Shown: piece by piece, positions 19,001-22,000 of the stretch
Layout of the letters: each line of letters begins with the position of its first letter
Numbering within the stretch: position 1 is the first letter of the stretch
Program-made: the position numbers
NCBI RefSeq assembly: GCF_044324785.1
Contig: NZ_CP172127.1
Origin: Escherichia coli
GTDB taxonomy: Bacteria; Pseudomonadota; Gammaproteobacteria; Enterobacterales; Enterobacteriaceae
Strand: one strand, 5' to 3'
Length of the DNA stretch: 64,000 bases

Positions 19001-22000
19001 TGCCGGTTCAGATAAACCCGCTGAAAATGGTTATTATGAAGTTACTGTGGAGGATGATCCGACATCTCCTGATGCAGGTAAGCTGAAGCTGGGGGCTCTA
19101 GCGGGTACCCAGCCTCAAGCAGGTAATTTAAAGGAAGTCACAACGGTGAAAGGGAAGGGGGCTATTGATGTTCAGTTGGGTACTGATACCGCAACCGCTT
19201 CTATCACAGGTGCAAAACTCTTTAAGTTAGAAGACGCTAATGGCAAAGATACTGGTTCATTTGCGTTGATTGGTGATGACGGTAAACAGTATGCAGCGAA
19301 TGTTGATCAGAAAACAGGTGCAGTTTCCGTTAAAACAATGTCTTACACTGATGCTGACGGTGTCAAACACGACAATGTTAAAGTTGAACTGGGTGGAAGC
19401 GATGGCAAAACCGAAGTTGTAACTGCAACCGATGGCAAAACTTACAGTGTTAGTGATTTACAAGGTAAGAGCCTGAAAACTGATTCTATTGCAGCAATTT
19501 CTACGCAGAAAACAGAAGATCCTTTGGCTGCTATCGATAAAGCACTGTCTCAGGTTGACTCGTTGCGTTCTAACCTAGGTGCAATTCAAAACCGTTTCGA
19601 CTCTGCCATCACCAACCTTGGCAACACCGTAAACAACCTGTCTTCTGCCCGTAGCCGTATCGAAGATGCTGACTACGCGACCGAAGTGTCTAACATGTCT
19701 CGTGCGCAGATCCTGCAACAAGCAGGTACTTCTGTTCTGGCACAGGCTAACCAGACCACGCAGAACGTACTGTCTCTGCTGCGTTAATCGCCGCTATATT
19801 CTGCCAAACCCCGCTCCGGCGGGGTTTTTTCTACCCGGCAAATAGCCGTAACCCCCAAATAACCCCTCATTTCACCCACTAATCGTCCGATTAAAAACCC
19901 TGCAGAAACGGATAATCGTGCCGATAACTCATATAACGCAGGGCTGTTTATCGTGAATTCACTCTATACCGCTGAAGGTGTAATGGATAAACACTCGCTG
20001 TGGCAGCGTTATGTCCCGCTGGTGCGTCACGAAGCATTGCGCCTGCAGGTTCGACTGCCCGCGAGCGTGGAACTTGACGATCTGCTACAGGCGGGCGGCA
20101 TTGGGTTACTTAATGCCGTCGAACGCTATGACGCCCTACAAGGAACGGCATTTACAACTTACGCAGTGCAGCGTATCCGTGGCGCTATGCTGGATGAACT
20201 TCGCAGCCGTGACTGGGTGCCGCGCAGCGTGCGACGCAACGCGCGTGAAGTGGCACAGGCAATAGGGCAACTGGAGCAGGAACTTGGCCGCAACGCCACG
20301 GAAACTGAGGTAGCGGAACGTTTAGGGATCGATATTGCCGATTATCGCCAAATGTTGCTCGACACCAATAACAGCCAGCTCTTCTCCTACGATGAGTGGC
20401 GCGAAGAGCACGGCGATAGCATCGAACTGGTTACTGATGATCATCAGCGAGAAAACCCGCTACAACAACTGCTGGACAGTAATCTGCGCCAGCGGGTGAT
20501 GGAAGCTATCGAAACGTTGCCGGAGCGGGAAAAACTGGTATTAACCCTCTATTATCAGGAAGAGCTGAATCTCAAAGAGATTGGCGCGGTGCTGGAGGTC
20601 GGGGAATCGCGGGTCAGTCAGTTACACAGCCAGGCCATTAAACGGTTACGCACTAAACTGGGTAAGTTATAACGTCAGTAAATGCCGCACTTTAATTTTG
20701 ACTACCAGGAGTTCTTAATGATGGTGCAGCACCTGAAAAGACGGCCATTAAGCCGCTATCTTAAAGACTTTAAACACAGCCAGACCCATTGCGCGCATTG
20801 CCGTAAATTACTCGATCGCATTACCTTAGTTCGCGACGGCAAAATAGTGAATAAAATCGAGATTTCCCGCCTGGACATGCTGCTTGATGAAAATGGCTGG
20901 CAAACGGAACAAAAATCATGGGCGGCATTGTGCCGATTTTGCGGTGATTTACATTGCAAAACGCAGAGTGATTTTTTCGATATTATCGGTTTTAAGCAAT
21001 TTCTTTTTGAGCAAACTGAAATGAGCCCAGGTACGGTGCGTGAATATGTCGTTCGTCTGCGCCGTTTGGGTAATCATCTACACGAGCAAAATATTTCCCT
21101 CGATCAGCTGCAGGACGGTTTCCTTGATGAAATCCTCGCCCCATGGCTGCCCACCACCAGCACCAACAATTACCGCATCGCGTTACGGAAGTATCAACAC
21201 TATCAGCGTCAAACGTGTACCGGACTTGTGCAGAAATCCTCCAGCCTGCCTGCTTCTGATATATATTAAATAAGAATAAGATGTAGCGGAGTTGTTTTTG
21301 TGTTTACAAACAATGGCTCTACACTGCAAACAGACATAACAACATTCGGGGTGAATATGAAATTAGCACATCTGGGACGTCAGGCATTGATGGGTGTGAT
21401 GGCCGTGGCGCTGGTTGCGGGCATGAGCGTTAAAAGTTTTGCAGATGAAGGTCTGCTTAATAAAGTCAAAGAGCGCGGCACGCTGCTGGTAGGGCTGGAA
21501 GGAACTTATCCGCCGTTCAGTTTTCAGGGAGATGACGGCAAATTAACCGGTTTTGAAGTGGAATTTGCCCAACAGCTGGCAAAACATCTTGGCGTTGAGG
21601 CGTCACTAAAACCGACCAAATGGGACGGTATGCTGGCGTCGCTGGACTCTAAACGCATTGATGTGGTGATTAATCAGGTCACCATTTCTGACGAGCGCAA
21701 GAAAAAATACGATTTCTCTACCCCGTACACCATTTCCGGTATTCAGGCGCTGGTGAAAAAAGGTAACGAAGGCACCATTAAAACGGCTGATGATCTGAAA
21801 GGCAAAAAAGTGGGTGTCGGTCTGGGCACCAACTATGAAGAGTGGCTGCGTCAGAATGTTCAGGGCGTCGATGTGCGTACCTATGATGATGACCCGACCA
21901 AATATCAGGATCTGCGCGTAGGCCGTATCGATGCGATCCTCGTTGACCGTCTGGCGGCGCTGGATCTGGTGAAGAAAACCAACGATACGCTGGCAGTAAC

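What the first reader, a model, noticed from the sequence alone, without database searches (positions are those of the whole stretch)
19788..19831. fliC 3' end and terminator as a possible 3'-UTR-derived sRNA
fliC is among the most highly transcribed genes and ends in a strong intrinsic terminator 20-45 nt past the stop. Stable 3'-end fragments of such mRNAs often act as Hfq-dependent sRNAs; one from fliC (FliX) has been reported, if I recall correctly. Its exact boundaries cannot be read from sequence alone.
Basis: partly seen in the sequence, partly recalled or inferred. Interest (0 to 1): 0.25.

Follow-up and report, generated by a model that had tools for sequence, protein, structure and literature searches.

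The report
fliC terminator without the FliX sRNA
The flagged stretch is the ordinary, very ancient transcription terminator at the end of the flagellin gene, and this strain's short version lacks the roughly 153-base insert that forms the body and target-recognition sequence of the known E. coli small RNA FliX.

Summary
fliC (18294-19787, +; its variable region matches H2 strains) is followed by an 18-nt spacer, a perfect 9-bp hairpin (19806-19814/19819-19827) and a run of six U (19825-30). fliA starts at 19953.

FliX is real: it is K-12 gene b4827, 195 nt, described by Melamed et al. 2023. Its body is a ~153-nt segment holding two REP elements and the validated seed UUUGUCAGCAACGUG. That segment sits between the spacer and the terminator in K-12 and in EPEC. 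The window lacks it entirely and shares only the terminator.

About 31% of 5,426 complete E. coli genomes have such short 3' UTRs, and 65% have the long FliX form. In 25 other Enterobacteriaceae species sampled, the fliC-fliA gap was 159-175 nt. In these the terminator is nearly invariant and the spacer is unconserved. The short form therefore looks ancestral and FliX looks like an Escherichia-lineage insertion. The insert has a paralogue in the artJ-rlmC intergenic region.

The window's fliC 3' end resembles Citrobacter more than K-12, while its fliA start is identical to K-12. This fits replacement of the fliC cassette.

Verdict: an ordinary, known terminator and a natural FliX-null allele. 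A different 3' fragment sRNA cannot be excluded without RNA data, but no conserved seed supports one.

The parts
18198..18224 (+). Sigma-28 (class 3) promoter of fliC: TAAAGTTC-N11-GCCGATAC
   Evidence: Read directly from the sequence. It matches the consensus TAAAGTTT-N11-GCCGATAA (established knowledge). Expression was not tested.
18294..19787 (+). fliC, flagellin, 497 aa. The variable region matches strains labelled H2. The C-terminus is ...NQTTQNVLSLLR*
   Evidence: ORF. RefSeq annotates 'flagellin' at the matching position. The variable region 18780-19520 is 99.3% identical to O45:H2 and O103:H2 strains and occurs in 112 of 5,426 genomes. The last 300 nt are 67% identical to K-12 and about 80% identical to Citrobacter fliC.
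19788..19805 (+). 3' UTR spacer UCGCCGCUAUAUUCUGCC, single-stranded and not conserved
   Evidence: Mean pairwise identity is 38.7% with no invariant column across 26 sequences. It also differs among the three short E. coli variants. No complement to it occurs elsewhere in the window.
19806..19830 (+). Rho-independent terminator of fliC: stem AAACCCCGC/GCGGGGUUU, loop UCCG, six U (19825-19830). The K-12 FliX insert would sit between 19808 and 19809.
   Evidence: Fold -20.7 kcal/mol, z = -3.4. Perfect 9-bp arms. 91.2% mean identity across about 10 genera. Homologous to the K-12 FliX terminator.
19831..19847 (+). Divergent segment just after the terminator, the last part that differs from K-12. 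It marks the right-hand end of the allele-specific fliC cassette.
   Evidence: There are 7 differences from K-12 in 19833-19847, then identity up to fliA except at position 19918. The corresponding region has 37.7% mean identity across genera.
19848..19952 (+). fliA promoter region, conserved, containing GCCGATAA at 19920-19927
   Evidence: 87.9% mean identity across 26 sequences and identical to K-12 except G at 19918. The roles of its elements are taken from established knowledge and were not tested.
19953..20672 (+). fliA (sigma-28), GTG start
   Evidence: ORF, annotation. The first 300 nt are 100% identical to K-12.

Best explanation
Positions 19788-19831 are the complete 3' UTR of an fliC gene whose variable region matches H2 strains. 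It is an 18-nt non-conserved spacer followed by a strong Rho-independent terminator. The terminator is conserved almost base for base across Enterobacteriaceae.

Its job (inferred) is to stop the very heavy sigma-28-driven fliC transcription just before the fliA promoter. The 3' stem-loop should also protect the mRNA from exonucleases.

This is the short form of the locus, and it looks ancestral. The sRNA FliX of K-12 exists because a ~153-nt unit (two REPs plus the seed UUUGUCAGCAACGUG) was inserted between spacer and terminator in an Escherichia lineage. This allele never carried that insert, or it was replaced by a cassette that lacked it. The window therefore does not encode FliX. At most a ~41-44-nt terminator fragment, or CDS-containing decay fragments without the validated seed, could arise.
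For: K-12 fliX (b4827) is annotated at 195 nt. The pairwise alignment shows the window lacks the whole segment between spacer and terminator. The seven-sequence alignment shows three different short variants and three long ones.

The seed is defined by the FliX-M1 primer and gBlocks. It pairs with rpsS nt 241-262 at -23.8 kcal/mol and with rpsQ nt 23-52. It is absent near fliC in the window.

Population counts: the long form is in 3,503 of 5,426 genomes, and the short forms are in 889 plus 780 genomes.

Outgroups: in 25 aligned species of Citrobacter, Enterobacter, Leclercia, Kluyvera, Buttiauxella, Cedecea, Pluralibacter and others, the fliC-fliA gap was 159-175 nt and none had the seed. Segment conservation was 38.7% for the spacer, 91.2% for the terminator and 37.7% after it.

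Cassette boundary: the fliC 3' end is 67% identical to K-12, whereas fliA is 100% identical.
Against: No RNA data exist for any short-form strain, so a stable Hfq-bound 3' fragment cannot be excluded.

The terminator with its 6-U tail and the AU-rich stretch before it (CUAUAUUCU) resemble an Hfq-binding module (from memory of the sRNA terminator literature). fliC mRNA is extremely abundant. The last 192 nt are more structured than shuffles, with z = -3.2.
Confidence: 0.8

Rival explanations
1. A FliX-like sRNA is still made from this allele. In this reading, RNase E cuts inside the fliC coding tail and releases a ~100-200-nt fragment ending at the terminator. The fragment binds Hfq and uses a seed embedded in the conserved C-terminal coding sequence.
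For: The terminator and U-tail are intact, and the last 192 nt are well structured. A 22-mer in the CDS (19668-19689, GCUGACUACGCGACC...) pairs with the same rpsQ site that FliX targets, at -26.9 kcal/mol. None of 200 mononucleotide shuffles of the tail did as well. Melamed et al. report several alternative fliC 3' processing products in K-12.
Against: The rpsQ complementarity lies in highly constrained flagellin coding sequence. It is also present in K-12 with one G-U pair instead, so it is not a replacement specific to short alleles. Pairing with the rpsS site, which was validated by a compensatory mutation, is no better than shuffles. No conserved non-coding seed exists. There is no experimental evidence in any short-form strain.
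Confidence: 0.12
2. The ~41-44-nt UTR fragment (spacer plus terminator) accumulates and acts without base pairing, as an abundant Hfq-binding competitor or sponge.
For: It has a GC hairpin, six U and an upstream AU-rich stretch. The parent mRNA is highly expressed (established knowledge). The hairpin shows striking sequence-level invariance across genera.
Against: Invariance is expected for any essential 6-bp GC terminator stem. There is no evidence for a processing site after the stop codon in this allele. The K-12 site context UCG|UUGUAAC reads UCG|CCGCUAU here. The idea is entirely speculative.
Confidence: 0.05
3. The short UTR is a secondary deletion of FliX in this lineage rather than an ancestral-type or imported FliX-less cassette.
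For: The long form dominates in E. coli at 65%. It also occurs in divergent Escherichia-like genomes L009 and L010, so it is old within the genus.
Against: Three sequence-distinct short variants exist. All 25 outgroup species aligned have the short architecture. The window's fliC 3' end and terminator loop (CUCCGG) are of the Citrobacter/Leclercia type, about 80% identical to Citrobacter against 67% to K-12. The O45:H2 spacer is nearly identical to that of Citrobacter youngae. A deletion would have had to be exact to the base at both insert ends.
Confidence: 0.08

Closest known systems
FliX sRNA of E. coli K-12 (b4827; Melamed et al. 2023, eLife 12:RP87151)
   Same: It occupies the same genomic slot, directly after the fliC stop on the fliC strand and upstream of the fliA promoter. 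The terminator hairpin and U-run are homologous (CCCCGC-N4/5-GCGGGG U6-7). Dependence on the sigma-28 fliC promoter would be the same.
   Different: The window lacks about 153 of the 195 nt. Both REP elements are missing, as are the FliX-S 5' end (GAAUUUGCACAUUUUUG...) and the seed UUUGUCAGCAACGUG whose GCA-to-CGU (M1) change abolishes rpsS binding.
Canonical Rho-independent (intrinsic) terminators of highly expressed genes
   Same: It has a GC-rich 9-bp stem, a 4-nt loop and a U-run immediately 3' of the stem. It lies 19 nt after a stop codon, and an A-tract 5' of the stem mirrors the U-tract.
   Different: Nothing essential differs. Its sequence is unusually invariant across genera.
Processed 3'-UTR-derived Hfq sRNAs (CpxQ, SdhX, FlgO, UhpU-S)
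   Same: It has the terminator and poly-U module at the 3' end of an abundant mRNA. FlgO, from flgL, is a sigma-28-dependent example in the same regulon.
   Different: Those sRNAs have a conserved single-stranded seed upstream of the terminator. Here the only non-coding single-stranded stretch is 18 nt long and unconserved.
BIME/REP-containing intergenic units, specifically the artJ-rlmC paralogue of the FliX body
   Same: This is relevant only to the long form. The K-12 insert is about 86% identical to the artJ-rlmC unit from its exact left edge, through both REPs, and into ...GCGCA(A/C)UUUGUCAGCAA.
   Different: The window contains no REP or BIME between fliC and fliA.

Membership tests
FliX sRNA (E. 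coli K-12 b4827) | Located immediately 3' of the fliC stop codon on the fliC strand and ending at the fliC terminator | tested here: met
   Window 19788-19830 occupies the homologous slot.
FliX sRNA (E. coli K-12 b4827) | Sequence homology over the 195-nt RNA, including the REP element carried by FliX-S | tested here: not met
   Only the first few nt after the stop and the terminator align, and a gap of about 153 nt covers both REPs. The junction query matches K-12-like genomes only from the terminator onward.
FliX sRNA (E. coli K-12 b4827) | Seed UUUGUCAGCAACGUG just 5' of the terminator (site of the M1 GCA-to-CGU mutation), complementary to rpsS, rpsQ and rplC | tested here: not met
   The seed is defined and its pairing was reproduced. 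No match with 3 or fewer mismatches occurs within or near fliC. The window tail pairs with the rpsS site no better than shuffles.
FliX sRNA (E. coli K-12 b4827) | Sigma-28-dependent expression, processing from fliC mRNA, and Hfq binding | not testable with these tools
   A sigma-28 promoter consensus is present at 18198-18224. RNA accumulation and Hfq binding need experiments.
Rho-independent terminator | GC-rich hairpin immediately followed by a U-run, downstream of a stop codon on the same strand | tested here: met
   Perfect 9-bp stem, 4-nt loop, six U, -20.7 kcal/mol, z = -3.4.
Rho-independent terminator | Conservation at orthologous loci | tested here: met
   91.2% mean pairwise identity over 26 sequences, against about 38% in both flanks. 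The stem pairs never vary, so there is no covariation evidence for or against the structure.
Processed 3'-UTR-derived Hfq-dependent sRNA (generic) | Conserved single-stranded seed upstream of the terminator | tested here: not met
   The spacer has no invariant columns and 38.7% identity. The three E. coli short variants have unrelated spacers.
Processed 3'-UTR-derived Hfq-dependent sRNA (generic) | Stable 3' fragment generated by RNase E and bound by Hfq | not testable with these tools
   This needs a Northern blot, Term-seq or RIL-seq in a short-form strain. The strains checked here in which FliX was reported (K-12, EPEC) carry the long form.

The most novel reading that the evidence does not exclude
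FliX is not a fixed part of the E. coli flagellar circuit. It is an insertion-born, allele-linked sRNA.

Its body and seed arrived as a ~153-nt BIME-containing unit, paralogous to one in the artJ-rlmC intergenic region. The unit inserted into an ancient, family-wide conserved short fliC 3' UTR.

About a third of sequenced E. coli carry fliC cassettes without the insert. They include this window, O103:H2 and O45:H2 STEC, and a large group with a 349-aa flagellin.

Such strains keep the 'accelerator' MotR (window 43651-43745) but lack the 'decelerator' FliX. Feedback from flagellin mRNA onto flagellar genes and the S10 ribosomal operon would then differ with the flagellin allele a strain carries.
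Probability: 0.7. Interest if true: 0.4.

Novelty: already known. Interest (0 to 1): 0.2.

Why it matters
The feature itself is an ordinary terminator, and FliX is already published and annotated.

The useful point for anyone transferring K-12 sRNA annotations is that FliX cannot be assumed from the presence of fliC plus a terminator. The functional part is a ~153-nt insert, and roughly one third of complete E. coli genomes lack it.

If the absence has phenotypic consequences, exchange of the flagellin gene, which is usually viewed as antigenic variation, would also switch a post-transcriptional brake on flagellar and ribosomal-protein synthesis on or off.

Tried and rejected
1. Rfam search at E-value threshold over 17000-21500. 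It returned only sub-threshold hits (istR 23 bits, RsmY 22 bits) that align to the terminator hairpin alone. Rfam has no FliX family.

2. Generic promoter and terminator scan. Terminator-like sites were not enriched over shuffles, at 5 against 3.1 expected, so the scan alone proves nothing.

3. Search for the FliX seed in the window. It is absent near fliC. One 15-of-16 match at 60246-60261 lies in the argS/yecM intergenic region, in the same sense as the seed and with no terminator. It was treated as probable chance.

4. Search for an alternative seed. The reverse complement of the UTR spacer has no other match in the window. Duplex scans of the mRNA tail against the rpsS site were no better than shuffles. 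The rpsQ hit lies in constrained coding sequence that K-12 also has, so it was kept only as a lead.

5. MotR/fliC co-variation test for the MotR SNP. Duplex predictions were inconsistent and uninformative.

6. Use of EPEC RIL-seq detection of FliX as evidence for short forms. This was rejected because E2348/69 carries the long form with an exact seed.

7. Salmonella as a comparator. There fliB lies between fliC and fliA, and the fliC terminator is unrelated, so it does not inform this allele.

8. Literature search for work on the fliC 3' UTR or FliX variation. Nothing turned up beyond Melamed et al. 2023 and a 2026 codon-bias paper that lists FliX as restricted to Enterobacteriaceae.

Full report
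**1. What is in the sequence**

The window carries fliD (minus strand), then fliC, fliA, fliZ and tcyJ on the plus strand. This is the order found in E. coli.

fliC is 18294-19787, 497 aa, with its TAA stop at 19785-19787. A consensus sigma-28 promoter lies upstream at 18198-18224.

After the stop come:
- 18 nt of spacer (19788-19805);
- a perfect hairpin AAACCCCGC/UCCG/GCGGGGUUU (19806-19827);
- a run of six U (19825-19830).

This fold has an energy of -20.7 kcal/mol and z = -3.4 against shuffles. fliA starts with GTG at 19953, so the fliC-fliA gap is 165 nt. The generic terminator scan is not enriched over shuffles. The case for the terminator therefore rests on its position and on conservation (section 5).

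**2. What FliX actually is**

Melamed et al. 2023 (PMC10578931) describe FliX as a sigma-28-dependent, Hfq-bound RNA of about 200 nt processed from the fliC 3' UTR. A form of about 100 nt, FliX-S, contains a REP element. FliX represses fliC, flagellar genes, and rplC, rpsS and rpsQ in the S10 operon.

In MG1655 it is annotated as b4827. It is 195 nt long, starts 3 nt after the fliC stop and ends at the terminator. The fliC-fliA gap there is 320 nt.

The paper's oligonucleotide table gives three anchors:
- the FliX 5' end (TTGTAACCTGATTAAC...);
- the FliX-S 5' end (GAATTTGCACATTTTTG...);
- the M1 seed mutation, AATTTGTCA[GCA to CGT]ACGTGCTT, immediately 5' of the terminator.

I reproduced the pairing of this region with rpsS nt 241-262 (-23.8 kcal/mol) and with rpsQ nt 23-52. 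RIL-seq lists rpsS, rplC and rpsQ as FliX partners in 5-6 conditions.

**3. The window lacks the FliX body**

Aligned with K-12, the window matches at the end of fliC, loses about 153 nt, and resumes exactly at the terminator stem. The missing segment contains both REPs, the FliX-S start and the seed.

The seed pattern with up to 3 mismatches does not occur in or near fliC. The window's mRNA tail pairs with the validated rpsS site no better than shuffled tails do. Rfam has no FliX model, and its only hits here are sub-threshold matches to the hairpin.

**4. How common the short form is**

Counts among 5,426 complete E. coli genomes:

| Form | Genomes | Share | Source |
|---|---|---|---|
| Long: K-12 FliX plus 33 nt covered at 80% or more | 3,503 | 65% | |
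| Short, flagellins ending LSLLR: window-type junction covered in one piece | 889 | 16% | |
| Short, behind a 349-aa flagellin ending LSLLQG | 780 | 14% | |
| Both short forms together | 1,669 | about 31% | |
| Unclassified | about 250 | about 5% | by subtraction |

Of the 889 window-type junctions, 44 are at least 99% identical to the window.

The seven-sequence alignment shows three short variants with unrelated spacers: the window, the O45:H2/strain H10 type, and MS20673. It also shows three long variants: K-12, Ecol_745 and AR_0011.

The window's flagellin variable region is 99.3% identical to O45:H2 and O103:H2 strains, so it is H2-type.

EPEC E2348/69, in which FliX was reportedly detected by RIL-seq, has the 320-nt long form with an exact seed. 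Published detection therefore says nothing about short forms.

**5. Evolutionary direction**

A scan of one genome per species using FliA as the query returned 80 loci. In the 25 species I aligned, a flagellin gene lies directly upstream of fliA. These species belong to Citrobacter, Enterobacter, Leclercia, Kluyvera, Buttiauxella, Cedecea, Pluralibacter, Superficieibacter, Pseudocitrobacter and others. Their fliC-fliA gap was 159-175 nt and none has the seed.

Mean pairwise identity by segment across the 26 aligned sequences:

| Segment | Mean pairwise identity |
|---|---|
| Spacer after the stop | 38.7% (no invariant column) |
| Hairpin plus U-run | 91.2% |
| 20 nt after the terminator | 37.7% |
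| fliA promoter region | 87.9% |

The short architecture is therefore ancestral for the family, and the terminator is under strong purifying selection. No stem pair varies, so covariation is uninformative.

K-12's spacer (...AACCTGATTAAC) resembles the Cedecea and Kluyvera spacers, which abut the terminator directly. This places the K-12 insert between the positions corresponding to 19808 and 19809.

Two divergent Escherichia-like genomes (L009, L010) also have a BIME-containing long UTR, but with a different pre-terminator sequence.

The K-12 insert has a paralogue of about 86% identity in the artJ-rlmC intergenic region. The similarity begins exactly at the insert's left edge and runs through both REPs into ...GCGCACUUUGUCAGCAA, followed by a separate terminator. 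I infer that the FliX seed arrived as part of a duplicated repeat unit.

**6. Cassette replacement**

Identity of the window to two comparators:

| Segment | K-12 | Citrobacter spp. |
|---|---|---|
| Last 300 nt of fliC | 67% | about 80% |
| First 300 nt of fliA | 100% | 87-89% |

The window differs from K-12 up to position 19847. From there to fliA it is identical except for G at 19918.

The window's FliC C-terminus (NQTTQNVLSLLR) and terminator loop (CUCCGG) are of the Citrobacter/Leclercia type. The O45:H2 spacer is nearly identical to that of Citrobacter youngae.

The fliC allele, its UTR and its terminator therefore behave as one exchangeable unit. Whether a strain has FliX depends on which unit it carries. 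Exchange of fliC alleles between lineages is well known; that statement is from my own knowledge of the H-antigen literature. The link to FliX is my inference.

**7. Mechanism**

Best explanation (0.8): this is the fliC terminator and nothing more specific.

Shown by the sequence:
- the structure and its position;
- its conservation;
- the absence of the FliX body and seed.

Inferred:
- it stops class 3 fliC transcription before the fliA promoter;
- it stabilises the mRNA 3' end.

Rival explanations are:
- a fragment that includes the coding tail and uses a CDS-embedded seed (0.12);
- a non-pairing Hfq decoy (0.05);
- on the question of origin only, a secondary deletion (0.08).

The one lead for the first rival is 15 nt of near-perfect complementarity between 19668-19682 and the rpsQ site that FliX targets. 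It lies in constrained coding sequence, and K-12 has it too.

**8. Verdict**

As a feature, this is already known and ordinary. The population-level and evolutionary picture of FliX may be new, but it concerns the long allele rather than this window. Interest 0.2.

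Noticed in passing
window 43651-43745 (+): MotR, the sigma-28-dependent 'accelerator' partner of FliX (motA 5' UTR, inside flhC), is present and intact. It has one SNP relative to K-12 at 43699 (A to T), directly 3' of the GUG triplet changed in the MotR-M1 seed mutant. This strain therefore keeps MotR while lacking FliX.
   Followed up: partly
window 60246-60261 (+): TTCGTCAGCAACGTGC matches the FliX seed at 15 of 16 positions and lies in the argS/yecM divergent intergenic region. One mismatch in 16 nt is unexpected by chance (about 0.002 per window by my estimate). However, it is in the same sense as the seed, so it is not a target, and no terminator follows it.
   Followed up: partly
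window 19918: G where all six other E. coli sequences aligned here have A (ATAATC[G]TGCCGATAA), 2 nt upstream of the GCCGATAA element in the fliA promoter. The three Kluyvera species and one unnamed Enterobacteriaceae genome in the alignment also have G. It is the only difference from the best-matching strains in 19500-19960.
   Followed up: partly
window 19668-19689 (+), inside the fliC CDS: GCUGACUACGCGACC... is complementary at 14 of 15 positions to rpsQ nt ~27-41, the site the FliX seed pairs with. The duplex energy is -26.9 kcal/mol, and none of 200 shuffled tails did as well. K-12 fliC has the same segment with one G-U pair.
   Followed up: partly
L089 (E. coli SHP24, artJ-rlmC intergenic region) versus L001 3413-3607: The K-12 FliX body has a paralogue of about 86% identity downstream of artJ, covering both REPs and the first part of the seed (UUUGUCAGCAA), with its own terminator. 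This suggests how the FliX seed originated. It also raises the question of whether the artJ 3' UTR yields a FliX-like RNA in all strains.
   Followed up: partly
window 19953-25000, and the window as a whole versus L002: The best identity of this 5-kb core stretch to any of 5,426 complete E. coli genomes is only 99.1%. The window is not collinear with the best fliC-matching strain before about 11,500 or after about 29,900, where that strain has a prophage next to the tRNA genes. The source lineage seems poorly represented among complete genomes.
   Followed up: no
window 61473-61780 (+), 48137-48214 (-), 29625-29924 (+): Rfam gathering-score hits are MicL sRNA (368 bits), C0465 RNA (98 bits) and three tRNAs. 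All are expected for this chromosomal region.
   Followed up: no
window 19821-19830 and 19857-19866: The 3' arm of the terminator plus its U-run (GGGGUUUUUU) is 90% complementary to AAAUAACCCC, 26 nt downstream in the conserved fliA promoter region. This is probably incidental, since the downstream element is conserved as promoter DNA.
   Followed up: no
L028, L033, L043 (Salmonella diarizonae, Franconibacter): Where fliB lies between fliC and fliA, the fliC 3' UTR and terminator (GGCAGCGAAAGCUGCC followed by six U) are unrelated to the E. coli or Citrobacter one and carry no FliX seed. Any 'FliX' reported for Salmonella is therefore not a sequence homologue of the K-12 RNA.
   Followed up: partly
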